A stretch of DNA of 13,468 nt, taken from positions 1 through 13,468 of IMG/VR virus record IMGVR_UViG_2526164634_000015, one strand, 5' to 3'. The stretch is from a virus. Taxonomy: Duplodnaviria > Heunggongvirae > Uroviricota > Caudoviricetes. Under the pieces are notes generated by a model, which made no database searches, had not been told where the DNA came from, and saw only the letters and a list, made by a program, of their open reading frames with translations. This document shows positions 1 through 13,339 of this stretch, piece by piece; within the stretch, counting starts at the first letter, position 1, and each line of letters begins with the position of its first letter. The translations under genes and the position numbers were made by a program.

Positions 1-317
1 TCGTTGCCGGCGTTACCGATATGTGTAAATCCTTCAACGGACTGGGAGAACAGGTACAACATGTGCTGAATGATAATCCCTTCTCCGGTCACCTGTTTAT
101 CTTCCGTGGCCGACGGGGGGACACCGTTAAAATTCTTTGGGCTGATGCTGATGGTCTGTGCCTGTTCACCAAACGCCTGGAGGAAGGCCAGTTTATCTGG
201 CCTGCGGTGCGTGACGGTAAGGTATCCATTACCCGCTCGCAACTGGCAATGCTCCTCGATAAGCTGGACTGGCGTCAGCCAAAAACATCCCGCCTTAACG
301 CCCTGACAATGTTGTAA
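1..317 (+). CDS. tnpB: IS66-family accessory protein TnpB (orf2), 5'-partial at window edge
   Basis: Translation ...VAGVTDMCKSFNGLGEQVQHVLNDNPFSGHLFIFRGRRGD...LCLFTKRLEEGQFIWP aligns along its length with the second TnpB copy at 1963-2310 (roughly 65% identical by eye); the reading frame is open back to base 1. Confidence 0.85.
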   Translation, partial: VAGVTDMCKSFNGLGEQVQHVLNDNPFSGHLFIFRGRRGDTVKILWADADGLCLFTKRLEEGQFIWPAVRDGKVSITRSQLAMLLDKLDWRQPKTSRLNALTML

Positions 318-341: not shown

Positions 342-363
342 GTAAGCGGCTCGTCAGAACCGT
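342..363. repeat. Terminal inverted repeat of the IS66-family element (transposase-proximal end)
   Basis: Begins 5'-GTAAGCG, the start I recall as typical of IS66-family termini; pairs with 3019-3040. Confidence 0.7.
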
Positions 364-371
364 ATTGATAT

Positions 372-1943
372 TTACTGAGAGCTCAGATCAACTTTCCAGG
401 GCAACAGATCGCGTACCCGGTTTGCCGGCCAGTCCTGGATATGTTCAATGACGTAGCGCAGCCACTTTTCTGGCTCCACATTGTTCAGACGGCATGTGCC
501 GATCAGCGAGTACAACACCGCCGCATGTTCACCATCGCTGTCGGAACCCGCGAACATCCAGTTTTTCCGGCCTACGGCCACTCCCCGTAAGGCGTTCTCT
601 GCGATGTTGTTGTCGATTTCCACCCAGCCATTACTGCAGTACACGTTCAGTGCATCCCACTGTTTCAGCAGGTATGCGAACGCTTTTGCCGTATCTGAGT
701 GACGCGACAGTGTTTTCATCTGTTGCTGTATCCAGTCATACAGTGACTGCATCAGTGGCGCGGCTCTGGTTTTTCTTGCCGCCAGACGCTGTTCTGCTGA
801 ACAGCCCCGGACCTCTGCCTCGATGGCATACAGTTCACCGATACGCTGCAGGGCTTCCGTGGTGATGTCGGTGGGCGCTCTTGCATGCACATCGTGGATT
901 TTTCTCCGGGCATGAGCCATACACGCGGCTTCCGTTATTCTGCCGGATTCGTATAACGCCCGGTAACCACCGTAAGCATCGGCCTGAAGCACACCGCTGT
1001 AACCGGCCAGGTGATTTTGTGGATGGATACCTTTCCGGTCCGGACTGTACGCGAACCAGACCGCCGGGGGCATCTGTGAACCGGCGTTACGGTCATCACG
1101 GACGTAGACCCACAGCCGGGCTGTCCGGGTTTACCGCTGCCCGGCTCCTGGACCGGGACGGGGATATCATCAGCATGGACTTTACCGGGCATCAGCACAT
1201 ACTGGCGCAGGACGTCATACTGCGGCTCCAGTAGTTCAGCAACGGCACCAGTCCAGCGCCCCAGTGTGGCACGGCTCAGCTCCACACCCTGACGGCGGTA
1301 TATCTCTGACTGGCGGTATAACGGCAGATGGTCTGCATATTTTCCGGTGACGACATGGGCCAGGAGCCCCGCTCCGGCATAACTGCGTGCAATGGGTTTT
1401 GAAGGCACCGGTGCCTGCACGATATGGTCGCACCGGCAACAGGCCAGTTTCGGACGTTGTGTTTCGATAACCTTAAAGGCGCTGCTGATAAGCTCCAGTT
1501 GCTCTGACACATCACATCCCAGAGAACTGAGTTCACCACCACAGGCAGGACAGCATTCCTCTTCCGGTCCGGATAACCCGGGTTTCACGGGGAAGTGAGG
1601 CCGGTAACGGTTTACGGGCTGAAGACTGGCGCAGGGCGGATGGCAGTACCGGGTCATATTGCTCACCCAGCGTTTCCGCCATTTCTTCCTGAAGTGCGCT
1701 GATTCGCTCCTGTGCTTCCTGTATCTGCCGTTCGGTTTTTGCACGAAGTTTTTCTGAGCTTTTACCGAACTGCATACGTTGCAGTTTCGCAACCAGCACC
1801 TTCAGCCGGTTGATTTCGGAAGCATAAGCCGCCACCCGCTGTGAGAGCAGGCGGTTGTATTCAGCCATCTGGCGTATGGTGTCCTGTTGCGTCTGCAACA
1901 GTGCCCGCAGGCGGGCGTTCTCATGAGCAAGTGAGGTGTCCAT
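372..1943 (-). pseudogene. tnpC: IS66-family transposase (orf3/TnpC) split over three reading frames by two single-base indels
   Basis: N-terminal leucine-zipper segment (ORF 1533-1943: MDTSLAHENARLRALLQ...), zinc-finger and middle segment (inside ORF 935-1792: PEEECCPACGGEL...[16 protein letters not shown]) and DDE C-terminal segment (ORF 372-1073: [15 protein letters not shown]...) are consecutive parts of one transposase in three frames. Frame switches lie near 1555-1580 and 1095-1130. Confidence 0.8.
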
Positions 1944-1962
1944 ATCCTCACTTTACAACGGG

Positions 1963-2310
1963 TTATATGCGGATTCCAGCGCGTTCCGTTCGTTTCGGGT
2001 GCTTCCAGTTGATACCTTCAAGAAGCATGGATAACTGAGCCGGAGTAAGGTGCACCTTGCCGTCACGGGTGACTGGCCAGACGAAGCGGCCCCGCTCCAG
2101 GCGTTTGGTGAAGAGGCACAGTCCGTCACTGTCAGCCCACAACACTTTTATCTGGTCACCCCGGCGTCCGCGGAAGATGAACAGGTGTCCGGAGAACGGG
2201 TCATCCTTCAGGACGTTCTGAACTTTTGATGCCAGGCCGTTAAAACCATTTCGCATATCGGTGATACCGGCAACCAGCCAGATACGCGAACCGGCAGGGA
2301 GAGATATCAT
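1963..2310 (-). CDS. tnpB: IS66-family accessory protein TnpB (orf2)
   Basis: 115-aa ORF MISLPAGSRIWLVAGITDMRNGFNGLASKVQNVLKDDPFSGHLFIFRGRRGD..., a recognisable IS66 Orf2; start overlaps the tnpA stop (ATGA). Confidence 0.9.
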   Translation of the reverse strand: MISLPAGSRIWLVAGITDMRNGFNGLASKVQNVLKDDPFSGHLFIFRGRRGDQIKVLWADSDGLCLFTKRLERGRFVWPVTRDGKVHLTPAQLSMLLEGINWKHPKRTERAGIRI

Positions 2311-2987
2311 CAGTGGCTGCTCCCTTTCATTTCGCGGATAAGTGTCTGTAATAACGCCGGCGTCAGTTTACCTTTAAGCCTGAGAGTTCCGGCCGGCAGA
2401 ATCAGCTCACAACACAGACTGTCGGACGGTGTATTTATCTGCTCTGGTTCCTGTGCGGGGGCCGGGATTTTATTATCCGGCTCCGGCGTTAACGTCACGG
2501 GAAGCAGTACCGGCATATTTTTTCCGGAAGGCAGCAGGCCACCTTTCCGGTATTGATGGCGCCAGTTGAAGAGCAGGTTATCGTTGATTCCGTTTTCCCG
2601 GGCGATCTGCGCCACACAGGCTCCGGGCTGCAGTGACTGCTCCACTAAGGCGATTTTAAACTCATAAGGGAAGTTGGGCCGCCGGGGACGTTTTTTTATC
2701 ACGGGGGCTTCGGATATAACGGTGTTTTCAGGACGTACGACTGGTACCGTGGAAAATTGTCCGTAAAGGCAGGCATCAAGTTCCTGCTCCGACATGCCTG
2801 CGGGCAAAGGCCACGAAAGGCCAGCTCTCCGAAAGCGCACGAACATATTACAAACTGTTGATTTTGGTACACCCAGGCGACGCCCGGCCACAACCCGGGG
2901 TAAATGTTCTTCAAAGTGAAGACGTAAAGCTTCAGTGATCCAGGTCCGGTGTTTCATACGATAGTGTCCATTAAAAATGATGGACAT
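2310..2987 (-). CDS. tnpA: IS66-family accessory protein TnpA (orf1), long form with two helix-turn-helix-like regions; true start may be an internal Met
   Basis: C-terminal half (RPRRPNFPYEFKIALVEQSLQPGACVAQIARENGINDNLLFNWRHQYRKGG) looks like an IS66 Orf1 / IS3-type HTH; lies inside the IS about 53 bp from the 3040 terminus and is coupled to tnpB. Confidence 0.75.
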   Translation of the reverse strand: MSIIFNGHYRMKHRTWITEALRLHFEEHLPRVVAGRRLGVPKSTVCNMFVRFRRAGLSWPLPAGMSEQELDACLYGQFSTVPVVRPENTVISEAPVIKKRPRRPNFPYEFKIALVEQSLQPGACVAQIARENGINDNLLFNWRHQYRKGGLLPSGKNMPVLLPVTLTPEPDNKIPAPAQEPEQINTPSDSLCCELILPAGTLRLKGKLTPALLQTLIREMKGSSH

Positions 2988-3018
2988 TATTTTTGTAGAG
3001 CCGGAGGAAACAGACCAG

Positions 3019-3040
3019 ACGGTTTAAATGAGCCGGTTAC
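3019..3040. repeat. Terminal inverted repeat of the IS66-family element (tnpA-proximal end)
   Basis: ...AGCCGGTTAC ends at 3040; its reverse complement starts GTAACCGGCTC and pairs with 342-363. Confidence 0.7.
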
Positions 3041-3051
3041 GATAAATATCC

Positions 3052-3585
3052 ATGAACACCAAAATCAAATACGGCCTGTCGGCTGCCGTTCTGGCGCTGA
3101 TTGCCGCTGGTGCGTCTGCGCCTGACATTCTCGATCAGTTTCTGGATGAAAAGGAAGGCAATCACACCACGGCATACCGTGATGGTGCAGGTATCTGGAC
3201 CATCTGCCGTGGTGCCATCATGGTGGATGGCAAACCTGTCGTTCCGGGCATGAAGTTGTCGAAGGAAAAATGCGACCAGGTTAACGCCATTGAGCGTGAT
3301 AAAGCGCTGGCGTGGGTGGAGAAAAACATCAAAGTGCCATTGAGCGAACCCCAGAAAGCGGGGATCGCGTCATTCTGTCCGTACAACATTGGTCCCGGTA
3401 AGTGTTTCCCGTCGACGTTTTATAAACGAATTAATGCAGGTGATCGCAGGGGAGCGTGTGAGGCGATTCGCTGGTGGATTAAGGACGGTGGCAGAGACTG
3501 CCGTATTCGTTCAAACAACTGCTACGGTCAGGTATCCCGTCGTGACCAGGAGAGCGCGCTGGCGTGCTGGGGTATCGACAGATAA
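3052..3585 (+). CDS. Phage endolysin, T4-lysozyme-like (GH24) with an N-terminal signal-anchor-release (SAR) type hydrophobic segment
   Basis: 177-aa ORF; N-terminus MNTKIKYGLSAAVLALIAAGASAP is a weakly hydrophobic Ala/Gly-rich segment; E-x8-D-x5-T catalytic spacing in EGNHTTAYRDGAGIWT; followed by Rz/Rz1 as in lambdoid lysis cassettes. Confidence 0.9.
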   Translation: MNTKIKYGLSAAVLALIAAGASAPDILDQFLDEKEGNHTTAYRDGAGIWTICRGAIMVDGKPVVPGMKLSKEKCDQVNAIERDKALAWVEKNIKVPLSEPQKAGIASFCPYNIGPGKCFPSTFYKRINAGDRRGACEAIRWWIKDGGRDCRIRSNNCYGQVSRRDQESALACWGIDR

Positions 3586-3675
3586 GCAGAATATTTTGCT
3601 GAAAAATAAAGCATGGCCACGCGGGCGGATAACATGAAATCCTGCGAACTGGCGAAACGTAAGTGAATAAAAGTA

Positions 3676-3712
3676 AAAACCCCGTTTGTTGGCACCAAGC
3701 GGGGTTTTGTGT
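3676..3712 (+). terminator. Intrinsic (rho-independent) terminator downstream of the endolysin gene
   Basis: AAAA-CCCCGTTTG-(loop)-CAAGCGGGG-TTTTGTGTTT: GC-rich stem of about 9 bp followed by a T-run, with an A-run upstream so it could act in both directions. Confidence 0.6.
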
Positions 3713-3744
3713 TTCCTGACTCCGGAAAAGTCAAAGGAGAAAGT

Positions 3745-3882
3745 GTGTTTGATTTTAGCAAACTGATTCGGGAGATTCGAGTGATGGCTGAAAAATTATC
3801 CACCTGGAAGTTCATTCTTATCTGGCTGGTGTTTGTGATTATGGCCTCCGGTTATTTCATCGGTCAGATACGCTGGTGGTGA
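3745..3882 (+). CDS. Small predicted single-pass membrane protein (45 aa from GTG 3745, or 32 aa from ATG 3784), stop overlapping the Rz start region
   Basis: AGGAG at 3734-3738 lies 6 nt before the GTG; translation [45 protein letters not shown] has one hydrophobic helix; its TGA (3880-3882) is 1 nt before the Rz ATG (3884). Too short to appear in the ORF track. Confidence 0.35.
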
Positions 3883-3883
3883 A

Positions 3884-4348
3884 ATGAACCGCGTACTGTG
3901 CGTAGTCATCATTGCCCTGCTGGTGGCCTGTGGTGCGCTTAGTCTGGGGCTGAATCATTACCGTGATAACGCCATTACCTACAAAGCCCAGCGCGACAAA
4001 AATGTCAGAGAACTGAAGCTGGCGAACGCGGCAATTACTGACATGCAGATGCGTCAGCGTGATGTTGCTGCGCTCGATGCAAAATACACGAAGGAGTTAG
4101 CTGATGCGAAAGCTGAAAATGATGCTCTGCGTGATGATGTTGCCGCTGGTCGTCGTCGGTTGCACATCAAAGCAGTCTGTCAGTCAGTGCGTGAAGCCAC
4201 CACCGCCTCCGGCGTGGATAATGCAGCCTCCCCCCGACTGGCAGACACCGCTGAACGGGATTATTTCACCCTCAGAGCGCGACTGATAATAATGCAAAAA
4301 CAACTTGAAGGGGCACAGCTATACATTCGAGAGCAATGCCTCAGATAA
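3884..4348 (+). CDS. Rz: Spanin inner-membrane subunit Rz (i-spanin)
   Basis: 154 aa; N-terminal TM helix ([20 protein letters not shown]) then a charged coiled-coil-like region; contains the embedded Rz1 frame; follows the endolysin. Confidence 0.85.
4104..4286 (+). CDS. Rz1: Spanin outer-membrane lipoprotein subunit Rz1 (o-spanin), embedded in the +1 frame of Rz
   Basis: 60 aa; signal peptide with lipobox (LVVVGC) and Pro-rich mature part (PPPPPAW...PPPDW); entirely inside Rz in another frame, the classic Rz/Rz1 arrangement. Confidence 0.8.
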
Positions 4349-4655
4349 AAACCGGCCAAGGATAATCCGCTGAAGATTCGCCGGTGGCTAAAGTGTGCCA
4401 AGAGTTCAATTTACGCAATTACTCCAGTCGATGCTATGCACCGTCTTTGTGAAGTCAATGGATACCTGATTTATTTCTGTGCGCTGTATCGTCGCTGTAC
4501 TCTTGCATTAATTATGACTGTAGCCTGACGGGGAACTCCTTCTGCACAAGTGTGGGGGAATAATCAAAAACGATGCACACCGGGGTTACCGGGTACACAT
4601 ATTTCATCATGCCAGCGAGTCCGGTTCTGGCACGGAAGAAACCGGACGTTATGAT

Positions 4656-5081
4656 TTAGTGCGGAAATATTTGTGTAGTGTTCTGAATGTTCTCAGTAAA
4701 GAGTAATGAATTATCAAAGGTATAGTAATACCTTTTGTTTTCGTGGATATTTGTAATCCATCTGAAAACCCCTGCTGTAGCAAGATTTTTCCTGTATTCG
4801 TAAAATGATAACTCTCCTGATTTGAATCCTTTTAAGGTGGCTTCTATAAGGCATTTATTTTTTGAAAATCTTACATTTACAACCTTACCCTGTCCTTTTA
4901 TTAAAACCGTATTATCGTTTTCAAGAACAAGATGAATATTCTCTGTGGCTAAATAGTAAATGTAATGTGAGACATTGTGACGTTTTAGTTCAGAATAAAA
5001 CCAGTGATAGTTTAAATTATTTCGCACTTTATCGAATATTTGTTTAAAAATGGCAACCTGAGCCATTGTAGTACCTTCCAT
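4656..5081 (-). CDS. AT-rich moron gene; hypothetical protein, tentatively DUF1398 family (YbcV/YdfO-like) from memory
   Basis: 141-aa ORF in a segment of about 33% GC (by eye), far below neighbouring phage genes; position between Rz1 and cos/terS matches where I recall ybcV/ydfO-like genes in E. coli K-12 cryptic prophages. Start may be the internal Met (MAQVAIF...). Confidence 0.6.
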
Positions 5082-5123
5082 GTGATATGAGGGGGCGTAG
5101 TCTGCACGATTATCTAAATTGCT

Positions 5124-5357
5124 TCAATCTGGTCTGACCTGTTTTCTGAGCAATTCAGTAATGTCACTCTTTTCTTTGTTTGCTTCAGGCGAAACTCTTT
5201 TTACTGAGCACAGTCTCCGGCGGCAGGCTTCAATGACCCAGGCTGAGAAATTCCCGGACCCTTTTTGAACAAGAGCGATGTTAATTTGTTCAATCATCTG
5301 GTTTGGAAATCGGATGTTGCGGGTTGTTGTTCTGCGGGTTCTGTTCTTTGATGACAT
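5124..5357 (-). CDS. Small ribbon-helix-helix-like protein, tentatively DUF3950 family (YlcI/YnfO-like) from memory
   Basis: 77-aa ORF with a basic N-terminus followed by TRNIRFPNQMIEQINIALVQKGSGNFSAWVIEACRRRL, an RHH-like strand-helix-helix pattern; co-oriented 42 bp upstream of the 141-aa gene. Confidence 0.55.
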   Translation of the reverse strand: MSSKNRTRRTTTRNIRFPNQMIEQINIALVQKGSGNFSAWVIEACRRRLCSVKRVSPEANKEKSDITELLRKQVRPD

Positions 5358-5563
5358 AATGTTTCCCCATATTCAGTGTTGCTGATTTGTATTATCTGAA
5401 GTTGCTTTTACGTTAATTTGACGCAGATCAATCAATACGATACCTGCGTCATAATTGATTATTTCTCGTGGTTTGATGGCGTACACACATGTTGTGATAA
5501 ACCTTATATAGATGATAATCATTATCATTTCGTGGGTCCTTTCCGGCGATCCGGGCCGTTACG

Positions 5564-5575
5564 GGGCGGCGACCT
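5564..5575 (+). other. cosN cohesive-end sequence (12-nt GGGCGGCGACCT) of a lambda-type cos site
   Basis: 5358-5608 reads like the junction of the lambda right and left genome ends (...GATGATAATCATTATCA...CCGTTACG | GGGCGGCGACCT | CGCGGGTTTTCGCTATTTATGAAAATTTTCCGG) as I recall them, immediately upstream of the small terminase gene. Confidence 0.85.
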
Positions 5576-5758
5576 CGCGGGTTTTCGCTATTTATGAAAA
5601 TTTTCCGGGATCCATGTCCGGTTTCTCTTCAAGTTAACTATATGAAAAATATAAAAACAGGTCTTCTGTGAACCGGACATGAACAAAAAACAGACATGTA
5701 AACCGGACATGACCGGTTTTGTTGTGATTGTGAGGTGAGAGTTTTTGCGAGGTGAGGA
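5576..5758 (+). promoter_or_regulatory. cosB-like terminase binding region: one inverted and two direct copies of an AACCGGACATG motif flanking an A/T-rich candidate IHF site
   Basis: CATGTCCGGTT at 5613-5623 (inverted), AACCGGACATG at 5671-5681 and 5701-5711 (direct, 30 bp apart), A/T-rich stretch 5631-5660 between the inverted and direct copies; parallels the lambda R3-I1-R2-R1 layout with a different motif. Confidence 0.65.
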
Positions 5759-6268
5759 GTGGCTACGCAGACTGAAGTTGCCAGGCATTTAAGTCTGACC
5801 GATCGCCAGCTTCGCAGATTGCAGAAATTGCCGGGTGCCCCGATATCGAATAAGCGAGGGCAACTGGATCTGGATGCCTGGCGCGATTTTTACATATCGT
5901 ATCTGAGGAGAAGTAAAAACGATGTGCCTGATGGCGATAGCGAAGACGACTATGAGGAGAAATTGCTTATTGCCAGATGGGAACTGACAGCAGAACAGGC
6001 TGTTACACAGCAGTTAAAAAATGAGGTGTCAAAAGGAAAACTTATTGACACCGGGTTCTGTATTTTTGCCCTCAGTAAGCTGGCAATGGCGTTATCCAGT
6101 ACGCTTGATTCCATCCCTTTATCCATGCAGCGACAGTTTCCTGATTTAACACCGCGCCATCTTGACCATCTGAAAACCCTTATTGCGAAGGGGGCAAATC
6201 AGTGTGCGCGGGCAGGGGATAAATTACCGGATTTACTCGATGAATATATCAGAGCAACAACTGAATAA
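5759..6268 (+). CDS. Terminase small subunit (Nu1-like DNA-recognition subunit), GTG start
   Basis: 169 aa; N-terminal HTH-like TQTEVARHLSLTDRQLRRL; sits directly after cosB and overlaps the terL start by 29 nt, as Nu1/A do in lambda; GAGG 6-7 nt upstream of the GTG. Confidence 0.75.
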   Translation: MATQTEVARHLSLTDRQLRRLQKLPGAPISNKRGQLDLDAWRDFYISYLRRSKNDVPDGDSEDDYEEKLLIARWELTAEQAVTQQLKNEVSKGKLIDTGFCIFALSKLAMALSSTLDSIPLSMQRQFPDLTPRHLDHLKTLIAKGANQCARAGDKLPDLLDEYIRATTE

Positions 6269-8167
6269 TATGGTGGCCGCCGTTTCGGTTGCGCTGCAGC
6301 CTCTGGTCAGGGTTGTACCGATGACGGCAGTTGAATGGGCTGACCAGTATTATTATCTGCCGAAAGAATCCTCATACGGTGACGGCGAATGGAAAACGCT
6401 GCCGTTCCAGATCGCCATCATGAACAGTATGGGGAATGATCAGATCCGCACTGTTAATCTGATTAAATCTGCCCGTGTTGGCTATACAAAGATGTTGCTG
6501 GGAGTCGCCGGGTATTTTATTGAGCATAAATCCCGAAACAGTCTGCTTTTTCAGCCCACGGATTCTGCCGCTGAAGATTTTATGAAGTCTCACGTGGAGG
6601 CGACGATTCGGGACGAGCCATGCCTGAAAGATCTTTCCCCGTGGCTGGGTCGTAAACATCGTGACAATACTCTCACGCTGAAACGCTTTTCATCGGGGGT
6701 GGGCTTCTGGTGCCTGGGTGGTGCGGCAGCAAAAAACTACCGTGAAAAATCCGTGGACGTGGTCTGCTATGACGAACTTTCCTCGTTCGAGCCGGATGTC
6801 GAAAAAGAGGGCTCGCCAACCCTGCTGGGGGATAAGCGTATTGAGGGCTCGGTATGGCCAAAATCCATTCGCGGCTCGACGCCTAAAATAAAAGGCTCCT
6901 GCCAGATCGAAAAAGCGGCCAACGAGTCGGCGCATTTCATGCGTTTTTATGTGTCCTGCCCGCACTGTGGGGAGGCGCAGTATCTGAAATTTGGCGATGA
7001 GTCCACGCCTTTTGGCCTTAAATGGGAGAAGGACAGCCCCGAAAGCGTTTTCTACCTCTGTGAACATCATGGCTGCGTGATCCATCAGTCTGAGCTTGAC
7101 CAGAGCAACGGGCGGTGGATCTGCGAAAACACGGGCATGTGGACCCGCGACGGTCTGACGTTTTTCAGCGCCCGGATAATGAAATTCCGCCGCCGCGCTC
7201 CATCACATTTCATATCTGGACGGCGTACAGTCCGTTCACCACCTGGGTACAGATTGTCTATGACTGGCTGGATGCACTGAAAGATCCCAACGGCCTGAAA
7301 ACCTTTGTGAACACCACGCTGGGCGAGACCTGGGAAGAGGCCGTGGGCGAAAAACTCGATCACCAGGTGCTGATGGATAAGGTTGTGCGTTACACGGCTG
7401 CGGTGCCTTCCCGGGTGGTTTATCTGACGGCGGGCATTGACTCGCAGCGAAACCGTTTTGAGATGTATGTCTGGGGATGGGCTCCGGGAGAGGAAGCCTT
7501 TCTGGTGGATAAAATCATCATTATGGGGCGTCCCGATGAGGAAGAGACGCTGTTACGTGTGGATGTGGCGATCAACAAAAAATACCGCCATGCAGACGGA
7601 ACCGAAATGACCATTTCCCGTGTCTGCTGGGACACCGGGGGGATCGATGGCGAAATTGTCTATCAGAGGTCAAAAAAACACGGTGTTTTCCGGGGGCTGC
7701 CGGTAAAAGGTGCATCTGTTTATGGCAAGCCGGTGATCACCATGCCAAAAACCCGCAATCAGCGGGGCGTGTATCTGTGCGAAGTGGGGACGGACACCGC
7801 AAAAGAAATTCTCTATGCCCGTATGAAAGCCGATCCCACGCCTGCGGATGAAGCCACGTCGTATGCCATCCGTTTTCCTGATGATCCGGAGATTTTTTCG
7901 CAGACAGAGGCGCAGCAACTGGTGGCGGAAGAGCTGGTGGAGAAGTGGGAAAAAGGAAAGATGCGTCTGCTGTGGGATAACAAAAAGCGGCGTAACGAAG
8001 CGCTGGACTGCCTGGTGTATGCCTACGCGGCATTACGTGTGTCCGTGCAACGCTGGCAGCTTGATCTGGCTGTACTGGCAAAATCCCGGGAAGAAGAGAC
8101 GACCCGGCCAACCCTGAAAGAACTGGCAGCGAAGCTGTCCGGAGGAGTGAATGGTTACAGTCGCTGA
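6240..8167 (+). pseudogene. A: Terminase large subunit (lambda gpA-like), interrupted by a -1 frameshift near 7170-7175
   Basis: ORF 6183-7280 (real start MNISEQQLNNM at 6240) matches the gpA N-terminal half as I recall it (TAVEWADQYYYLPKES..., GYTKMLLGVAGYFIEHK, KRFSSGVGFWCLGGAAAKNYREKSVDV); ORF 7115-8167 in another frame continues with ITFHIWTAYSPFTTWVQIV...KRRNEALDCLVYAYAALR. One base appears missing in the GCCCGG run around 7170-7175. Confidence 0.85.
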
Positions 8168-8357
8168 ACTGCAGGCGCTGCGTCAGGCGCGCCTTGATTT
8201 ATTAACCGGTAAACGGGTGGTGTCTGTCCAGAAAGATGGTCGCAGAATTGAATATACGGCGGCTTCTCTGGATGAGCTTAACCGGGCGATCAATGATGCG
8301 GAGTCGGTACTGGGGACAACCCGACGTCGCCGTCGTCCGCTGGGAGTGAGGTTATGA
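8151..8357 (+). CDS. W: Head completion / head-tail joining protein (lambda gpW-like)
   Basis: 68 aa, MVTVAELQALRQARLDLLTGKRVVSVQKDGRRIEYTAAS..., close to lambda W as I recall it; stop overlaps the portal start. Confidence 0.85.
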   Translation: MVTVAELQALRQARLDLLTGKRVVSVQKDGRRIEYTAASLDELNRAINDAESVLGTTRRRRRPLGVRL

Positions 8358-9946
8358 AACGAACGCCTGTCCTGATTGATGTGAACGGCGTTCCGCTTCG
8401 TGAGAGTCTCAGCTACAACGGGGGCGGCGCAGGATTTGGCGGGCAAATGGCGGAGTGGTTGCCACCGGCGCAGAGTGCCGATGCAGCCCTGCTGCCTGCG
8501 TTGCGTCTGGGGAATGCCCGGGCAGATGATCTGGTGCGCAATAACGGAATAGCGGCTAATGCGGTGGCCCTGCATAAGGATCACATTGTCGGGCATATGT
8601 TTCTGATCAGCTACCGTCCGAACTGGCGCTGGCTGGGGATGCGGGAGACCGCAGCAAAAAGCTTTGTCGATGAGGTGGAGGCGGCCTGGTCGGAATACGC
8701 AGAAGGGATGTCTGGCGAGATCGACGTGGAAGGAAAACGCACATTTACGGAGTTTATCCGTGAAGGTGTTGGCGTTCATGCGTTTAACGGCGAAATCTTT
8801 GTGCAGCCGGTCTGGGATACGGAAACCACGCAGTTATTCCGTACGCGTTTTAAAGCCGTGAGTCCGAAACGGGTGGACACGCCAGGACACGGTATGGGGA
8901 ACCGTTTTCTGCGGGCCGGGGTGGAGGTCGATCGATATGGCCGTGCCGTTGCGTACCATATCTGTGAGGATGATTTTCCTCGCTCCGGGAGTGGACGATG
9001 GGAACGGATCCCGCGTGAACTTCCCACCGGGCGTCCGGCCATGCTGCATATTTTCGAGCCGGTGGAGGACGGGCAGACCCGTGGGGCCAATCAGTTTTAC
9101 AGCGTCATGGAACGGCTGAAGATGCTCGATTCCCTGCAGGCAACACAGCTTCAGTCGGCCATAGTGAAGGCGATGTATGCAGCGACGATTGAAAGTGACC
9201 TTGATACCGAAAAGGCCTTTGAATATATCGCCGGCGCGCCACAGGAGCAGAAGGATAATCCGCTTATTAATATTCTGGAGAAGTTCTCCAGCTGGTATGA
9301 CACGAATAACGTGACACTGGGCGGTGTCAAAATTCCGCACCTTTTCCCTGGTGATGATCTGAAACTACAGACTGCGCAGGATTCAGACAATGGATTTTCG
9401 GCGCTTGAACAGGCGCTGCTGCGGTATATCGCCGCCGGTCTTGGCGTTTCCTACGAACAGTTGTCCCGGGATTACTCGAAGGTCAGTTATTCAAGTGCCC
9501 GCGCCTCCGCCAATGAGTCGTGGCGCTATTTTATGGGACGACGAAAATTTATTGCGTCCCGGCTGGCCACGCAGATGTTTTCCTGCTGGCTGGAAGAGGC
9601 ACTTCTTCGGGGGATTATTCGTCCGCCACGGGCGCGTTTTGATTTTTATCAGGCGCGATCAGCCTGGTCACGGGCTGAGTGGATTGGAGCCGGAAGAATG
9701 GCCATTGACGGGCTCAAGGAGGTTCAGGAATCGGTGATGCGCATTGAGGCCGGACTGAGCACGTATGAGAAAGAGCTGGCGCTGATGGGCGAGGATTATC
9801 AGGACATTTTCCGCCAGCAGGTCAGGGAATCTGCAGAGCGGCAAAAAGCCGGACTCTCACGTCCGGTGTGGATAGCGCAGGCGTATCAGCAGCAGATAGC
9901 GGAGAGTCGCAGGCCGGAAGAGGAGACAACACCCCGTGAGACGTAA
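8354..9946 (+). CDS. B: Portal protein (lambda gpB-like)
   Basis: 530 aa, collinear with my recollection of lambda gpB over the whole length (GGGAGFGGQ..., NARADDLVRNNG, FEPVEDGQTRGAN, LQSAIVKAMYAATIES, GRMAIDGLKEVQE); no frame disruption. Confidence 0.9.
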   Translation: MKRTPVLIDVNGVPLRESLSYNGGGAGFGGQMAEWLPPAQSADAALLPALRLGNARADDLVRNNGIAANAVALHKDHIVGHMFLISYRPNWRWLGMRETAAKSFVDEVEAAWSEYAEGMSGEIDVEGKRTFTEFIREGVGVHAFNGEIFVQPVWDTETTQLFRTRFKAVSPKRVDTPGHGMGNRFLRAGVEVDRYGRAVAYHICEDDFPRSGSGRWERIPRELPTGRPAMLHIFEPVEDGQTRGANQFYSVMERLKMLDSLQATQLQSAIVKAMYAATIESDLDTEKAFEYIAGAPQEQKDNPLINILEKFSSWYDTNNVTLGGVKIPHLFPGDDLKLQTAQDSDNGFSALEQALLRYIAAGLGVSYEQLSRDYSKVSYSSARASANESWRYFMGRRKFIASRLATQMFSCWLEEALLRGIIRPPRARFDFYQARSAWSRAEWIGAGRMAIDGLKEVQESVMRIEAGLSTYEKELALMGEDYQDIFRQQVRESAERQKAGLSRPVWIAQAYQQQIAESRRPEEETTPRET

Positions 9947-11440
9947 TCTTTCACACATTATTGCCGCAGCATTCAATGAACCGCTGCTTCTGGAGCCCGC
10001 CTATGCGCGGGTTTTCTTTTGCGCGCTCGGGCGCGAGATGGGGCAGCAAGTCTTTCGGTACCACAGCAGCAGGTACAGCTTGATGCTCCCGGAATGCTGG
10101 CTGAAACGGACGAGTACATGGCCGGAGGTAAACGACCGGCCCGTGTTTACCGGGTGGTGAACGGTATTGCTGTACTGCCGGTGACCGGCACGCTGGTGCA
10201 CCGGCTGGGGGGTATGCGGCCATTTTCCGGAATGACAGGCTATGACGGTATTGTCGCCTGTCTTCAGCAGGCAATGGCGGATAGCCAGGTGCGGGGCGTA
10301 CTGCTGGACATTGACAGTCCGGGCGGGCAGGCCGCCGGCGCGTTTGACTGCGCTGACATGATTTACCGCCTCCGTCAGCAGAAGCCGGTCTGGGCACTGT
10401 GCAATGACACGGCCTGTTCTGCAGCCATGCTGCTGGCATCGGCCTGCTCCCGACGGCTGGTTACCCAGACATCCCGTATCGGCTCCATTGGCGTGATGAT
10501 GAGCCATGTCAGCTATGCCGGTCATCTGGCGCAGGCCGGTGTGGATATCACGCTGATTTACTCAGGGGCGCACAAGGTGGATGGCAATCAGTTTGAAGCC
10601 TTACCGGCAGAGGTTCGCCAGGACATGCAGCAGCGCATTGATGCGGCGCGCCGGATGTTTGCCGAAAAAGTGGCGATGTTTACCGGTCTGTCTGTTGATG
10701 CCGTCACGGGAACAGAGGCCGCCGTTTTTGAAGGTCAGTCCGGCATTGATGCCGGGCTGGCGGATGAATTAGTCAATGCGTCGGATGCCATCAGTGTGAT
10801 GGCCACGGCGCTGAACAGTAATGTCAGAGGAGGCACTATGCCGCAATTAACTGCAACGGAAGCCGCCGCGCAGGAGAACCAGCGAGTGATGGGGATCCTG
10901 ACATGCCAGGAAGCGAAAGGACGTGAACAGCTTGCCACGATGCTGGCAGGACAACAGGGCATGAGCGTTGAACAGGCCCGGGCGATTCTGGCCGCGGCGG
11001 CACCGCAGCAGCCGGTGGCATCCACGCAGAGTGAAGCCGATCGCATTATGGTGTGTGAAGAAGCGAACGGTCGTGAACAACTGGCGGCAACGCTGGCGGC
11101 GATGCCGGAGATGACGGTGGAAAAAGCCCGCCCGATCCTGGCTGCTTCACCGCAGGCGGATGCCGGACCCTCACTCCGTGATCAGATCATGGCACTGGAT
11201 GAGGCAAAAGGGGCTGAGGCGCAGGCTGAACAGCTGGCTGCCTGCCCGGGAATGACTGTGGAGAGCGCCCGGGCTGTGCTGGCTGCGGGATCAGGTAAGG
11301 CAGAACCGGTCTCTGCATCCACAACCGCCCTGTTTGAACGCATCATGGCGAACCATTCACCGGCTGCGGTACAGGGTGGCGTGCCACAGACGTCAGCAGA
11401 CGGTGATGCGGACGTGAAAATGCTCATGGCCATGCCATGA
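9936..11440 (+). pseudogene. C: Head maturation protease / scaffold (lambda gpC-Nu3-like, S49 peptidase family), -1 frameshift near 10040-10075; C-terminal scaffold-like part holds three protein-level repeats
   Basis: GTG start at 9936 gives ...LSHIIAAAFNEPLLLEPAYARVFFCALG (gpC-like N-terminus) and then runs into a stop; the rest of gpC (VNGIAVLPVTGTL..., LDIDSPGG, PVWALCND, SIGVMMSHV) is in ORF 10019-11440 in another frame. Confidence 0.8.
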
Positions 11441-11476
11441 AGTCAGTGCTGACCATCAACAGGAGGTTTTTACAAT

Positions 11477-11824
11477 ATGGTGACGAAAACTATCACTGAA
11501 CAGCGTGCGGAAGTACGTATTTTTGCCGGTAATGATCCGGCTCATACCGCCACAGGCAGCAGCGGGATTTCCTCGGCAACACCGGCACTGACGCCCCTGA
11601 TGCTGGATGAAGCCACCGGGAAACTGGTGGTCTGGGACGGACAAAAAGCCGGTAGTGCGGTTGGCATACTGGTACTGCCGCTTGAAGGCACAGAGACGGC
11701 GCTGACCTATTACAAGTCGGGGACCTTTGCGACGGAGGCAATCCGCTGGCCTGAAAGTGTGGATGAACACAAAAAGGCCAATGCCTTTGCCGGCAGTGCC
11801 CTGAGTCACGCGGCGCTGCCGTAA
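11477..11824 (+). CDS. D: Head decoration protein (lambda gpD-like)
   Basis: 115 aa; DPAHTATG...TPLMLDEATGKLVVWDG...VGILVLP...YYKSGTF resembles lambda gpD as I recall it; AGGAGG 10 nt upstream of the ATG. Confidence 0.85.
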   Translation: MVTKTITEQRAEVRIFAGNDPAHTATGSSGISSATPALTPLMLDEATGKLVVWDGQKAGSAVGILVLPLEGTETALTYYKSGTFATEAIRWPESVDEHKKANAFAGSALSHAALP

Positions 11825-11831
11825 CACGTTA

Positions 11832-11851
11832 TCAGGCCACCGCGGTGGCCT
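11832..11851 (+). other. Perfect 20-bp palindrome (CAGGCCACCGCGGTGGCCTG) in the D-E intercistronic region; candidate RNA stem-loop
   Basis: The sequence is its own reverse complement; sits 8 nt after the D stop and 30 nt before the E start; no T-run follows, so more likely a processing or stability element than a terminator. Confidence 0.4.
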
Positions 11852-11881
11852 GACTGATTTCTGAATGAAAGGAACTGATTT

Positions 11882-12913
11882 ATGGGATTGTTTACGACCC
11901 GCCAGTTACTCGGTTATACCGAACAAAAAGTGAAATTTCGTGCGCTGTTTCTGGAGCTGTTTTTCCGCCGTACGGTGAATTTCCATACCGAAGAGGTGAT
12001 GCTGGACAAAATTACCGGAAAAACGCCGGTGGCGGCCTATGTCTCCCCGGTTGTTGAAGGAAAAGTGCTGCGTCATCGCGGTGGTGAAACCCGCGTGTTA
12101 CGTCCGGGCTACGTCAAGCCGAAACACGAATTTAATTACCAGCAGGCGGTTGAGCGTCTTCCCGGTGAAGAGTCCGGCTCAGCTGAACGACCCGGCCTAC
12201 CGTCGTCTGCGTATCATCACTGATAACCTCAAACAGGAAGAGCACGCCATTGTCCAGGTGGAAGAAATGCAGGCGGTGAATGCCGTGCTGTATGGCAAAT
12301 ACACGATGGAAGGAGACCAGTTCGAGAAAATTGAGGTCGATTTTGGCAGGTCGACGAAGAATAACATCACTCAGGGTAGTGGTAAGGAGTGGTCAAAAAC
12401 AGGATCGTGACACGTTCGATCCTACACATGATCTTGACCTACTACTGCGACCAGGCCAGCGGTCTTGTGAATATTGCCATTATGGACGGTACCGTCTGGC
12501 GTCTGCTGAATGGCTTTAAATTGTTCCGCGAAAAACTGGATACCCGTCGCGGCTCTAATTCGCAACTCGAAACAGCGGTGAAAGACCTGGGCGCGGTGGT
12601 GTCCTTCAAAGGGTATTACGGCGATCTGGCCATTGTGGTGGCAAAAACGTCTTATGTGGCAGAGGACGGTACCGAAAAACGTTATCTGCCTGAGGGCTCG
12701 CTGGTCCTGGGGAATACGGCAGCAGAGGGCATTCGTTGCTATGGTGCCATTCAGGATGCGCAGGCGTTGTCCGAAGGTGTGGTGGCCTCTTCCCGTTATC
12801 CGAAACACTGGCTGACGGTAGGGGATCCCGCCCGTGAATTTACCATGACGCAGTCCGCGCCGCTGATGGTGTTGCCGGACCCGGATGAGTTTGTGGTGGT
12901 ACAGGTGAAATAA
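11882..12913 (+). pseudogene. E: Major capsid protein (lambda gpE-like) interrupted by three +1 single-base insertions (about 12173, 12395, 12440) that together restore the original frame
   Basis: Segments in four ORFs (11882-12223, 12039-12410, 12280-12519, 12389-12913) each match consecutive stretches of gpE as I recall it (KPKHEFNYQQ..., DPAYRRLRII...VEEMQAV..., DTFDPTHD, ...KLDTRRGSNS...SRYPKHWLTVGDPAREFTMTQSAPLMVLPDPDEFVVVQV). Confidence 0.85.
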
Positions 12914-12918
12914 TCCGT

Positions 12919-12950
12919 GAGCGGGGGCGAAATGCCCCCGTGTCTTTTTT
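12919..12950 (+). terminator. Stem-loop with T-run directly after the capsid gene; candidate intrinsic terminator or attenuator
   Basis: GCGGGGGC-GAAAT-GCCCCCG followed by TGTCTTTTTTC, between the E stop and the FI start. Confidence 0.45.
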
Positions 12951-12964
12951 CACAGGGGGATGAT

Positions 12965-13339
12965 ATGGCAACGAAAGAGCAAAATCTGAAACGGTTTGAT
13001 GAACTGGCCCTGATTCTGGGGCGTGAGCCGGATATATCCGGGAGTGCCGCAGAGATAGCGCAGCGGGTGGCAGAATGGGAAGAGGAAATGCAGTCATCCG
13101 GCGATGATGTACAGGTTATGAATATGGATATCCGGGAGAGGGAAAACGCGGCTCATGATGTTCGTGAGGAAACATCCGGCGCGTTAACGCGCATCAGAGT
13201 TCTGACCTGCCTCCATCTCTGTGGCGTTGATGGTGAAACGGGGGAATCCGTTGAGCTTGCGGATGTTGGTCGGGTGATTCTGATTATGTCCTCAGATGCA
13301 AAAACACACGTTGATGGTGGAATGGCTGTTTATGCGTGA
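12965..13339 (+). CDS. FI: DNA packaging protein (lambda gpFI-like)
   Basis: 124 aa from the ATG at 12965 (GGGGGA RBS-like run just upstream); acidic protein in the gpFI position between E and FII; sequence similarity to lambda FI is weak, so the call rests mainly on synteny. Confidence 0.6.
   Translation: MATKEQNLKRFDELALILGREPDISGSAAEIAQRVAEWEEEMQSSGDDVQVMNMDIRERENAAHDVREETSGALTRIRVLTCLHLCGVDGETGESVELADVGRVILIMSSDAKTHVDGGMAVYA

What the first reader, a model, noticed from the sequence alone, without database searches (positions are those of the whole stretch)
5358..5758. Chimeric cos site: lambda-like cosQ/cosN joined to a cosB with different repeats, matched by a non-lambda small terminase
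From about 5358 to 5608 the sequence reads like my recollection of the lambda right end, the 12-nt cohesive end GGGCGGCGACCT and the first 33 bp of the lambda left end. Where lambda has R3 the sequence diverges into a different motif, AACCGGACATG, present once inverted and twice direct around an A/T-rich tract, which is the lambda R3-I1-R2-R1 geometry with different recognition elements. The adjacent small terminase has an N-terminal DNA-binding region unlike Nu1, while the large terminase is gpA-like. This looks like a natural packaging-specificity swap, with the cleavage site conserved and the recognition site plus small subunit exchanged.
Basis: partly seen in the sequence, partly recalled or inferred. 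Interest (0 to 1): 0.5.

Follow-up and report, generated by a model that had tools for sequence, protein, structure and literature searches.

The report
Lambda-type cos site, uncharacterised cosB class
This is the DNA-packaging start site (cos) of a lambda-like E. coli prophage: the cutting site is the same as lambda's, but the small-terminase binding repeats and the matching DNA-binding domain are a different type that is common in E. coli and apparently untested, so it is an ordinary modular arrangement and not a one-off chimera.

Summary
cosQ (5534-5540), cosN (cohesive end 5564-5575) and the first 45 bp of the left end are identical to lambda. The 11-mer CATGTCCGGTT/AACCGGACATG occurs exactly at 5613-5623, 5671-5681 and 5701-5711, flanking an IHF-like site.

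"Chimera with a non-lambda small terminase" overstates it. The same cosB plus terS module occurs in the PhiR12 phages and in 1141 of 5426 complete E. coli genomes. cosQ-cosN-I2 is conserved in every relative, so it is the constant part of all lambda-type cos sites. The TerS is a full-length, divergent Nu1-family protein: its C-terminal two-thirds match Pfam Phage_Nu1, and its N-terminal winged-HTH matches the same PHROG profile positions as the Nu1 DNA-binding domain.

Comparative data make the repeats very likely TerS sites. Position and spacing are fixed in 10 enterobacterial relatives while the spacers vary. A recognition-helix residue covaries with one motif base (R20 with ATGTCC; D/N20 with A[T/C]TTCC). 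The TCCGGTT core persists in Pseudomonas and Azospirillum relatives.

The exchanged unit is cosB + terS + the first ~55 codons of terL; downstream the sequence is phage 21-like. This is a new, probably distinct specificity class of a known system. This copy sits in a degraded prophage with a terL frameshift.

The parts
5200..5533 (.). Lambda-like right-arm flank. It includes the 5' part of the ynfO/DUF3950 gene on the minus strand (5124-5357). It is not part of cos proper, but it forms the left side of the mosaic.
   Evidence: 78-94% identity to lambda in 50-nt bins. 173 of 207 columns identical for 5358-5563, with a 7-bp insertion relative to lambda. PhiR12_1 has unrelated sequence here. Pfam DUF3950.
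5534..5540 (+). cosQ (GGGTCCT), the packaging-termination element.
   Evidence: It lies at -30..-24 from the top-strand nick. GGGTCCTTTC is invariant in 10 enterobacterial relatives and in lambda, 21 and Gifsy-1. [quoted passage not shown]
5562..5577 (+). cosN, the nicking site. The 12-nt cohesive-end sequence GGGCGGCGACCT is at 5564-5575 (bp 1 = 5564).
   Evidence: Read directly from the sequence; identical to lambda and 21.
5593..5607 (+). I2-equivalent segment (TATGAAAATTTTCCG, cos bp 30-44).
   Evidence: Same position as the I2 IHF site annotated in the phage 21 record M81255 (bp 30-44). TTATGAAAATTT is nearly invariant in relatives.
5613..5623 (+). R3-equivalent TerS site, CATGTCCGGTT (cos bp 50-60).
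   Evidence: Occupies the R3 position of lambda and 21 (bp 50-65). The core lies 81-83 bp from cosQ in all 10 enterobacterial relatives. T-CCGGTT is invariant. It covaries with the TerS recognition helix.
5635..5647 (-). I1-equivalent IHF site (top strand TAACTATATGAAA; bottom strand TTTCATATAGTTA against WATCAANNNNTTR).
   Evidence: 7 of 9 specified positions match, the same score as lambda's documented I1. The offset from cosQ (+101 against +103) and the strand are the same as in lambda. Relatives L028, L029, L035 and L030 have perfect consensus matches at +100..+102.
5671..5681 (-). R2-equivalent TerS site, inverted relative to R3 (AACCGGACATG on the top strand; extended copy 5667-5682).
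   Evidence: 100% complementary to R3, with 47 nt between the arms. It lies at +136..+138 from cosQ in all 10 enterobacterial relatives. AACCGGA is invariant.
5701..5711 (-). Third (R1-like) copy in the same orientation as R2 (extended 5697-5712). It overlaps a 10/11 forward copy, CATGACCGGTT, at 5708-5718, forming a near-palindrome.
   Evidence: A third copy in this orientation is present in PhiR12_1, L032 and L028, but absent in L029, L030, L031, L033, L034 and L035. It is therefore accessory. The forward overlapping copy is not conserved in L032 or L028.
5759..6268 (+). terS (169 aa, GTG start at cos bp 196). It has an N-terminal winged-HTH DNA-binding domain (~res 1-54, recognition helix R16-K23 RQLRRLQK) and a C-terminal Nu1-like oligomerisation and TerL-binding part.
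   Evidence: ORF. Pfam Phage_Nu1 on res 49-150. 40-46% identity to gp1 and Nu1 over the C-terminal ~100 aa only. AF2 model of the DBD: pLDDT 88, helices 4-10, 15-22 and 38-53 with a hairpin between. PHROG 57 profile positions 12-68 matched, E=1.2e-9.
6240..6410 (+). 5' end of terL (about the first 55 codons), which co-varies with the TerS type. It is the presumed TerS-binding specificity segment.
   Evidence: The protein alignment groups the window with PhiR12_1 and with the Klebsiella and Salmonella relatives up to about residue 57; after that it becomes near-identical to phage 21 gp2. DNA identity to 21 rises from ~40-60% to 82-96% at ~6400. The megablast match to 21 starts at 6384.
6240..8167 (+). 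terL (gpA/gp2-type large terminase), interrupted here by a 1-bp deletion at ~7172.
   Evidence: GpA_ATPase on the 6240-7280 ORF and GpA_nuclease on the 7115-8167 ORF. The deletion is seen relative to strain 12A and phage 21. The closest complete genomes have an intact gene.

Best explanation
The region is a complete lambda-type cos site: cosQ, cosN, I2, then a cosB ordered R3 - IHF site - inverted R2 - accessory third copy. It belongs to a lambdoid E. coli prophage.

Inferred mechanism, by analogy with lambda and 21:
1. Dimers of the TerS winged-HTH domain bind the CATGTCCGGTT elements R3 and R2 across an IHF-induced bend.
2. This anchors the gpA-type TerL on cosN, which it nicks to give 12-nt 5' cohesive ends.
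3. cosQ serves termination.

The cosB elements and the TerS DNA-binding domain form a matched recognition pair. It is of a type different from the three documented specificities (lambda, 21, N15). Together with the rest of terS and the TerS-binding N-terminus of terL, it makes up an exchangeable cassette, set between a lambda-like right arm and phage 21-like head genes.

Shown here: the sequence elements, their positions, their conservation, the covariation with the recognition helix, and the mosaic boundaries. Inferred: binding, bending, cleavage, and that the specificity does not overlap with lambda or 21.
For: Anatomy:
- cosQ, cosN and bp 1-45 are identical to lambda.
- R3 is at cos bp 50-60, where lambda and 21 have R3 (bp 50-65).
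- The IHF-like site is at the I1 position and orientation.
- R2 is inverted at bp 108-118, against 21's R2 at bp 107-122.
- The terS start is at bp 196, against 191 in lambda and 189 in 21.

Not chance: all four copies with at most 1 mismatch cluster in 106 bp; 0 of 200 shuffles reached 4.

Phylogenetic footprint: ten enterobacterial loci have TerS 61-99% identical. They keep cosQ, I2, the R3 core, the TAA of I1 and the R2 core invariant at fixed offsets (R3 +81..83, R2 +136..138 from cosQ). The spacers are unalignable.

Covariation:
- Helix ..RQLRRLQK goes with (C/G)ATGTCCGGTT in window, PhiR12_1, L033, L031 and L032.
- Helix ..R(D/N)LQK goes with CA(T/C)TTCCGGTT in L028, L029, L035, L030 and L034.
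- The same trend appears in lambda (N21 with TTTCC) and 21 (R21 with TGTCGG).

Distant type-A TerS genes in Pseudomonas, Microbulbifer, Enterobacter mori, Desulfospira and Azospirillum keep (C/T)TTCCGGTT 75-85 bp after GGGTCC. Three loci whose helix lacks the DRxxR pattern (L021, L023, L026) lack the motif.

The TerS is a Nu1-family protein. The AF2 model of its DBD superposes on the gpNu1 DBD 1J9I with TM 0.67 and on RppC with TM 0.66.

The module occurs in deposited complete phage genomes PhiR12_1..5, whose listed hosts are the laboratory strains MG1655 and E. coli C. It also occurs in 1141 of 5426 E. coli genomes.
Against: - There is no experimental evidence for binding, cleavage or packaging for this cosB type. 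I found none in the searchable literature.
- Similarity of the DBD to Nu1 is weak by direct tests. BLAST finds nothing. hhalign gives P=0.0025 and probability 12%. No Foldseek E-value is significant.
- The R3 core sits 2-3 bp closer to cosN than the corresponding core in lambda and 21. In lambda, shifts of more than 1-2 bp are harmful (PMC4669245).
- The third copy has the opposite orientation to lambda and 21 R1.
- In this particular window terL is frameshifted and other head genes carry indels. The resident prophage probably cannot use its own cos.
- The covariation rests on 10 loci that are not phylogenetically independent.
Confidence: 0.85

Rival explanations
1. One reading: a recent, unusual recombinant in which a lambda cosQ/cosN was fused to the cosB and small terminase of a phage outside the lambda family.
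For: Lambda-like identity (78-94%) runs from ~5200 to bp 45 of the left end and stops exactly before R3. PhiR12_1 carries the same cosB and terS but an unrelated right arm, and it differs from the window at 2 positions within bp 1-45. So a crossover inside the conserved cosQ-I2 stretch in the window's lineage is plausible.
Against: - cosQ, cosN and I2 are conserved in every relative of this TerS type, including Klebsiella, Salmonella, Citrobacter and Enterobacter loci. They are therefore native to the family and not imported from lambda.
- The TerS is Nu1-family over its whole length, with a gpA-type TerL partner in all relatives.
- The junction is shared by 720 of 5426 genomes, so it is old and common.
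Confidence: 0.25
2. The repeats are not terminase sites. They would be binding sites for another regulator, or in the case of the 5700-5719 palindrome an intrinsic terminator or RNA hairpin upstream of terS.
For: The consensus scan flags 5700-5719 (AAACCGG-ACATGA-CCGGTTT followed by TGTTGTG) and 5605-5621 as terminator-like. Three such sites were found against 0.8 expected in shuffles.
Against: - The stems are short and the T tails poor.
- The palindromic partner of the third copy is not conserved in L032 or L028.
- The motif's distance from cosQ and cosN is fixed to within 1 bp across genera, and it covaries with the TerS recognition helix. A terminator or an unrelated regulator would not explain either.
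- Rfam finds nothing.
Confidence: 0.04
3. The cosB has phage 21 specificity in slightly diverged form, so there is no new specificity. The R cores differ by a single inserted base (CATGTC-GG against CATGTCCGG).
For: The annotated R boxes of phage 21 (TCGTGTCGGTAC, TCATGTCGGACC, TCATGTCGGGCC) resemble the window's CCATGTCCGGTT. Both helices have Arg at the position equivalent to residue 20/21.
Against: - The DNA-binding domains share no BLAST-detectable similarity.
- The recognition helices differ at 5 of 8 positions (RTIERWQS against RQLRRLQK).
- The wing is 5 residues shorter.
- A 1-bp insertion changes the register of half the site, and the core is displaced 2-3 bp toward cosN.
- Lambda and 21 discriminate more than 1000-fold on smaller differences (PMC4669245).
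Confidence: 0.08

Closest known systems
Phage 21 cos (cosB-21 with gp1 small terminase and gp2 large terminase)
   Same: cosQ and cosN are identical. The order R3 - I1 - R2 - third R is the same. R3 is at bp 50-65 and R2 at about bp 107-122. The R core is very similar (CATGTCGG). TerL and all head genes downstream of terL codon ~57 are 96% identical.
   Different: The R core carries one extra C and sits 2-3 bp closer to cosN. The third copy is oriented like R2, not like R3. The TerS DBD is not BLAST-similar, and the TerS C-terminal part is only 40% identical. The first ~55 residues of TerL differ.
Phage lambda cos (cosB-lambda with gpNu1 and gpA)
   Same: cosQ, cosN and bp 1-45 are identical, and the right-arm flank is 84-94% identical. 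The IHF I1 site has the same position and orientation. The terS start is at a similar distance (bp 196 against 191). The TerS C-terminal part is 46% identical. The sister subgroup's R element (CATTTCCGGTT) matches lambda R3 (CGTTTCCGTTC) at 9 of 11 positions with a 3-bp shift.
   Different: The R elements differ (CGTTTCC against CATGTCCGG). The recognition helix differs (RTIQNWQE against RQLRRLQK), the wing is shorter, and the third copy has the other orientation.
N15 / Monarch group (third documented lambda-like specificity; simple versus complex cosB)
   Same: Within one TerS type, both complex cosBs (R3-I1-R2-R1) and simple cosBs (R3 only, terS starting shortly after) exist. Here the enterobacterial members are complex and the Pseudomonas and Azospirillum members are simple. 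This parallels Monarch and N15 (PMC4669245).
   Different: The R sequence is different. N15 TerS matches the window's TerS only over the C-terminal part (residues 59-164, 43% identity).
PICI Rpp / cos-PICI system (EcCICFT073)
   Same: A conserved cosQ/cosN lies next to a divergent cosB that is read by a different winged-HTH of the Nu1 DBD fold. The AF2 model of the window's DBD superposes on RppC (6hlk) with TM 0.66 (PMC6739421, PMC9026076).
   Different: Here the DBD is part of a complete TerS with its own TerL-binding C-terminus, followed by terL and head genes. There is no separate rpp gene and no hijacking. The cosB is complex, whereas the proposed PICI cosB is R3-only.

Membership tests
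Lambda-like cos site (12-nt 5' cohesive ends; cosQ-cosN-cosB) | A 12-bp cohesive-end sequence with strong identity to lambda's, flanked by symmetric bp. | tested here: met
   GGGCGGCGACCT at 5564-5575; the flanks and bp 1-45 are identical to lambda.
Lambda-like cos site (12-nt 5' cohesive ends; cosQ-cosN-cosB) | The conserved 7-bp cosQ upstream of cosN. | tested here: met
   GGGTCCT at 5534-5540 (-30..-24); invariant in lambda, 21, Gifsy-1 and 10 relatives.
Lambda-like cos site (12-nt 5' cohesive ends; cosQ-cosN-cosB) | A complex cosB: R3 at about bp 50-65, IHF site I1, an inverted R2, and a further R copy before terS. | tested here: met
   R3 at bp 50-60, I1-like at bp 72-84, R2 at bp 108-118 (inverted), third copy at bp 138-148. 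The orientation of the third copy differs from lambda and 21 R1.
Lambda-like cos site (12-nt 5' cohesive ends; cosQ-cosN-cosB) | Terminase actually nicks here and yields cohesive ends; packaging depends on cosB. | not testable with these tools
   This needs virion-end sequencing or cos-cleavage and packaging assays.
Phage_Nu1 small terminase family (Pfam PF07471 / PHROG 57) | The whole-protein score exceeds the curated cut-off. | tested here: met
   PF07471: 67.9 bits against a cut-off of 30, but only residues 49-150 align. PHROG 57 matches residues 1-169, E=1.7e-55.
Phage_Nu1 small terminase family (Pfam PF07471 / PHROG 57) | An N-terminal winged-HTH DNA-binding domain homologous to the gpNu1 DBD (1J9I). 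| tested here: inconclusive
   Against: no BLAST or Pfam match, no PDB sequence match, and hhalign probability 12%.
For: the DBD alone hits PHROG 57 positions 12-68 (E=1.2e-9), the same positions as the Nu1 DBD (E=5e-23). The AF2 model (pLDDT 88) has TM 0.67 to 1J9I, but the E-value is not significant.
gpA-type large terminase partner | An adjacent, overlapping terL with GpA_ATPase and GpA_nuclease domains. | tested here: met
   Both domains are found, but they are split by a 1-bp deletion at ~7172 in this window. The gene is intact in relatives.
Phage 21 packaging specificity | R boxes matching the 21 consensus (CATGTCGG core at bp 56-61), together with the gp1 recognition helix RTIERWQS. | tested here: not met
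   The core is CATGTCCGG at bp 50-58. The helix is RQLRRLQK. The DBDs are not BLAST-similar.
Lambda packaging specificity | R boxes CGTTTCC(G/T)TTCT, together with the Nu1 recognition helix RTIQNWQE. | tested here: not met
   Similarity to lambda ends at bp 45; both the R elements and the helix differ.

The most novel reading that the evidence does not exclude
This cosB/TerS pair is a fourth, experimentally untested packaging specificity of the lambda-like cos phages. It is carried by about a fifth of complete E. coli genomes.

Its DNA-binding domain (MATQxEVAxHLxL(S/T)xRxxRxL...) and its TCCGGTT core site are conserved from Enterobacteria to Pseudomonas and Azospirillum. A single residue-to-base covariation stands out: helix residue 20 Arg with G, and Asp/Asn with T, in A-T-[G/T]-T-C-C. 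Lambda (N21 with T) and 21 (R21 with G) show the same relation, which hints at a simple shared recognition code.

The same TerL-binding TerS scaffold carries at least three interchangeable DNA-binding domains. Packaging specificity would then evolve by domain-plus-site cassette exchange.
Probability: 0.6. Interest if true: 0.45.

Novelty: new member of a known kind. Interest (0 to 1): 0.3.

Why it matters
Packaging specificity decides which DNAs in a cell get packaged. These include co-resident prophages, PICIs and cos plasmids, so it shapes transduction and prophage interference in pathogenic E. coli, which carry several lambdoid prophages each.

Only three lambda-like specificities (lambda, 21, N15) have been documented (PMC4669245). 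A very common additional class would extend that system. Its clean natural residue-base covariation, and its natural TerS domain chimeras, would give ready-made material for testing how winged-HTH small terminases read cosB.

For genome annotation, the result supplies a recognisable cos signature for a large group of EHEC/EPEC prophages: GGGTCCT, then N23, the cohesive end, and CATGTCCGGTT at bp 50-60.

It does not reveal a new mechanism.

Tried and rejected
- **PDB sequence search.** A TerS family profile found no relevant structure.
- **Foldseek with the full-length AF2 model** (pLDDT 68, pTM 0.32) gave no significant hit, only weak MerR-type winged-HTH matches.
- **Foldseek with the DBD-only model.** It found excisionase, RacA, MerR, RppC and gpNu1 folds at TM 0.6-0.7, but every E-value was above 0.1. 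I treat fold identity as supportive, not proven.
- **hhalign of the type-A DBD against the Nu1 DBD** was weak (probability 12%), though in register.
- **Literature searches.** Searches for the motif itself, for the PhiR12 accessions, and for cosB with packaging specificity found no description of this cosB type. Paywalled Feiss-lab papers (for example Sippy et al. 2015, Feiss et al. 2015 in Virology) could not be read, so an earlier in-silico mention cannot be excluded.
- **The genome-contig scan** returned only distant relatives and no enterobacterial ones. Close relatives had to be fetched one at a time.
- **L025**, which has Arg at helix position 20, might have given an independent test of the covariation. 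It has no recognisable cos upstream.
- **Rfam** found nothing in the window.
- **Small ORFs across cos** (5373-5528 minus strand, 5418-5597 plus strand, 5588-5788 minus strand). I rejected them as genes because relatives show free spacer divergence and length variation there.
- **A citation for the TerS-binding segment of gpA.** I recall it as the N-terminal 48 residues (Feiss-lab genetics of the 1980s). I could not find this in the searchable library, so it is marked as recollection.
Full report
**What is in the sequence**

The window is the late region of a lambdoid E. coli prophage. The order is an IS66-family element, then lysozyme, Rz, a DUF1398 gene and ynfO (DUF3950), then cos, terS, terL and phage 21-like head genes. 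The closest complete genome is E. coli O111:H2 strain 12A. It is 98.4% identical over 3041-13086 and virtually identical through the cos region.

The cohesive-end sequence GGGCGGCGACCT lies at 5564-5575, so I number cos bp 1 = 5564. The 7-bp cosQ GGGTCCT is at 5534-5540. From bp 1 to bp 45 (5564-5608) the window is identical to lambda. The 206 bp upstream match lambda at 173 of 207 aligned columns. Similarity ends abruptly at bp 46.

- CATGTCCGGTT at 5613-5623.
- Its reverse complement AACCGGACATG at 5671-5681 and at 5701-5711.
- A 10/11 forward copy at 5708-5718.

These are the only four matches with at most one mismatch in 13.5 kb. About 0.35 are expected by chance, and 0 of 200 shuffles reached four. 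The two direct copies extend to 15 of 16 identical nucleotides at a spacing of 30 bp. This echoes the 16-bp identity of lambda R2 and R1 (PMC9026076).

**How it maps onto lambda and 21**

In cos coordinates:

| Element | This window | Lambda / 21 |
|---|---|---|
| First copy (R3) | bp 50-60 | R3 at bp 50-65 |
| Second copy (R2, inverted) | bp 108-118 | 21 R2 at bp 107-122 |
| terS start codon | bp 196 | 191 in lambda, 189 in 21 |

Between the first two copies lies TAACTATATGAAA (5635-5647). Its bottom strand matches the IHF consensus at 7 of 9 specified positions. That is the same score, strand and offset from cosQ as lambda's documented I1.

The order R3 - I1 - R2 - third copy is therefore preserved. 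The exception is the third copy, which points the same way as R2. In lambda and 21, R1 points the same way as R3 (PMC9026076; phage 21 annotation).

The repeat core resembles known R boxes. Phage 21 has CATGTCGG and the window has CATGTCCGG. The core here lies 2-3 bp nearer to cosN.

**The small terminase**

The 169-aa TerS (5759-6268, GTG start behind a GAGGTGA Shine-Dalgarno sequence) matches Pfam Phage_Nu1 only over residues 49-150. It is 40-46% identical to 21 gp1 and lambda Nu1 over its C-terminal ~100 residues. BLAST detects no similarity in the first ~60 residues.

The N-terminal domain is nevertheless not foreign:
- MAFFT aligns it in register with the Nu1 and gp1 winged HTH. The helix-initiating Arg is conserved and the wing is 5 residues shorter.
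- On its own it hits PHROG 57 ("terminase small subunit") at profile positions 12-68 with E=1.2e-9. The lambda Nu1 DBD hits the same positions with E=5e-23.
- An AlphaFold model of residues 1-54 (pLDDT 88) has the helix - helix - hairpin - helix topology. It superposes on the gpNu1 DBD (1J9I, TM 0.67) and on RppC (6hlk, TM 0.66). No Foldseek E-value is significant for so small a domain.
- Direct hhalign support is weak, at probability 12%.

I conclude that it is a strongly diverged Nu1-type DNA-binding domain. Its recognition helix is RQLRRLQK, against RTIQNWQE in lambda and RTIERWQS in 21.

**Evidence that the repeats are the TerS sites**

I collected the loci of eight TerS relatives at 61-80% identity, from Klebsiella, E. 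coli, Salmonella, Citrobacter, Enterobacter and one metagenomic contig, and added phage PhiR12_1.

- All ten loci, counting the window, keep GGGTCCTTTC, a cosN-like sequence, TTATGAAAATTT, an R3 core 81-83 bp after cosQ, and an inverted R2 core at +136..+138.
- An IHF-consensus site sits between R3 and R2. It is a perfect consensus match in four loci.
- The spacers are unalignable.
- The third copy is present in only four of the ten, so it is accessory.

The motif covaries with the helix:

| Recognition helix | R element | Loci |
|---|---|---|
| ..RQLRRLQK | (C/G)ATGTCCGGTT | five |
| ..R(D/N)LQK | CA(T/C)TTCCGGTT | five |

 The association does not simply follow overall TerS identity. The second group includes the relatives closest to the window overall (80%, 77% and 74% identity). 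Lambda (N21 with TTTCC) and 21 (R21 with TGTCGG) show the same residue-base relation.

A scan of one genome per species found about 20 distant TerS genes with the same N-terminal domain, in Pseudomonas, Microbulbifer, Desulfospira, Azospirillum and others. Most have GGGTCC followed 75-85 bp later by (C/T)TTCCGGTT, often as a tandem doublet, with terS starting about 20 bp later. This is a simple cosB of the kind known in N15. Three loci whose helix lacks the DRxxR pattern lack the motif. This is strong comparative evidence, but it is not biochemical proof.

**What is exchanged, and is it a chimera?**

Sliding identity and a TerL N-terminal alignment define the mosaic:
- Lambda-like from about 5200 to bp 45.
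- A block from R3 through terS to about codon 55 of terL, which is shared with PhiR12_1 and the other relatives.
- Phage 21-like, at 96% identity, from about 6400 onward.

The TerL N-terminus co-varying with the TerS type fits my recollection of Feiss-lab genetics, which places the Nu1-binding specificity domain in roughly the first 48 residues of gpA. I could not retrieve a citation, so this rests on my own knowledge.

The cassette is not rare:
- TerS is 99.4% identical in PhiR12_1..5.
- The 801-bp cos-terS segment is present at 80% coverage or more in 1141 of 5426 complete E. coli genomes, including O157:H7 and O55:H7.
- 720 genomes share the lambda-like upstream junction as well.

Conservation of cosQ, cosN and I2 next to a divergent cosB is the norm for the family. 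[quoted passage not shown] "Chimeric cos" therefore describes the ordinary modular design. A crossover within the conserved cosQ-I2 stretch in this lineage remains plausible, because PhiR12_1 has a different right arm and two differences within bp 1-45.

Specificity swapping does occur at a finer scale. TerS proteins with near-identical C-terminal scaffolds carry three different N-terminal domains:
- This type.
- A Nu1-like type (P0063, P0067).
- A third type, MAFLLNKSDMA... (P0056, P0060, P0069, P0073 and others).

In addition, P0101 joins this DBD to an unrelated C-terminus.

**Comparison with what is known, and novelty**

The Feiss laboratory states that three packaging specificities have been documented among lambda-like phages: lambda, 21 and N15. 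Phages 434 and phi80 share lambda's specificity (PMC4669245). I found no description of the CATGTCCGGTT cosB or of this DNA-binding domain in the searchable literature. PGAP simply names the protein "terminase small subunit", and NCBIfam has no model for it.

I therefore file it as a new member of a known kind. The architecture and presumed mechanism are the same as in lambda and 21. The recognition pair is different and probably non-cross-reacting. The R1 orientation and the R3 register differ slightly. It fails the tests for lambda and for 21 specificity, and it meets the tests for a lambda-type cos site and for Nu1-family membership.

**State of this particular copy**

This prophage looks degraded, or else the assembly carries indel errors:
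- terL has a 1-bp deletion at about 7172.
- The prohead protease gene has a 1-bp deletion in a G run at about 10039.
- Further indels occur at about 12172, 12395 and 12441.
- An IS66-family element whose transposase is split into three ORFs abuts the lysozyme gene.
- The closest complete genomes have an intact terL.

The cos itself is intact and identical to that of strain 12A. It could still be recognised by a co-resident or superinfecting phage of the same specificity.

**Verdict**

Interest is modest. The finding is a common, coherent module with good comparative support for its function and natural material for recognition-code experiments, but it involves no new mechanism.

Noticed in passing
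window 7172 (terL, 6240-8167): There is a 1-bp deletion (GCGCC-CGG against GCGCCGCGG in strain 12A). It splits the large terminase into ORFs 6183-7280 and 7115-8167. The closest complete genomes have an intact gene. It is either a pseudogene or an assembly error.
   Followed up: partly
window 10039; also 12172, 12395, 12441: A 1-bp deletion in a G run (GGGGG to GGGG) lies inside the S49 prohead protease/scaffold gene, which appears as ORFs 9936-10160 and 10019-11440. Three further single-base indels relative to strain 12A lie in the FI / head-tail joining region. Mismatches to 12A cluster at 8500-9000 and beyond 12000.
   Followed up: partly
window 342-3043: This is an IS66-family (ISEc8-like) element on the minus strand. 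It has an HTH_Tnp_1 ORF (2310-2987), TnpB_IS66 (1963-2310), and a DDE transposase split into three overlapping ORFs (1533-1943, 935-1792, 372-1073). It ends immediately upstream of the lysozyme gene (3052). Strain 12A has holin and ydfR genes at that place.
   Followed up: partly
window 5728-5739 and 5745-5756: A direct repeat TTGTGAGGTGAG / TTGCGAGGTGAG, 17 nt apart, lies just upstream of the terS GTG. It amounts to two Shine-Dalgarno-like GAGGTGA elements, and it is identical in PhiR12_1.
   Followed up: no
window 5700-5719: A near-palindrome AAACCGGACATGACCGGTTT followed by TGTTGTG is flagged as terminator-like. It is formed by the third R copy and an overlapping 10/11 forward copy. The forward half is not conserved in the Klebsiella and Enterobacter relatives.
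   Followed up: partly
proteins P0063, P0067, P0056, P0060, P0069, P0073, P0076, P0072, P0101: These are natural TerS domain chimeras. The same C-terminal scaffold (YEEKLLIARW...DEYIR) is joined to a Nu1-like DBD, to a third DBD type (MAFLLNKSDMASSIGISVQAF...), or to the window's DBD. P0101 joins the window's DBD type to an unrelated C-terminus.
   Followed up: partly
loci L007-L020, L022, L024 (about 100 bp upstream of terS): Distant relatives in Pseudomonas, Microbulbifer, Enterobacter mori, Desulfospira and Azospirillum have a simple cosB. It consists of cosQ-like GGGTCC, a diverged cosN, and a single or tandem (TTCCGnTTCCGGTT) element 75-85 bp after cosQ, with terS starting about 20 bp later.
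   Followed up: partly
window 5499-5505: A 7-bp insertion (AAACCTT) relative to lambda lies in the otherwise lambda-like right-end flank, about 30 bp upstream of cosQ.
   Followed up: no
window 6250-6350: The first ~35 codons of terL are only 72-76% identical at the DNA level to PhiR12_1, although terS is 99-100% identical on one side and terL 96-100% on the other. This is a small divergent patch at the terS/terL overlap.
   Followed up: no
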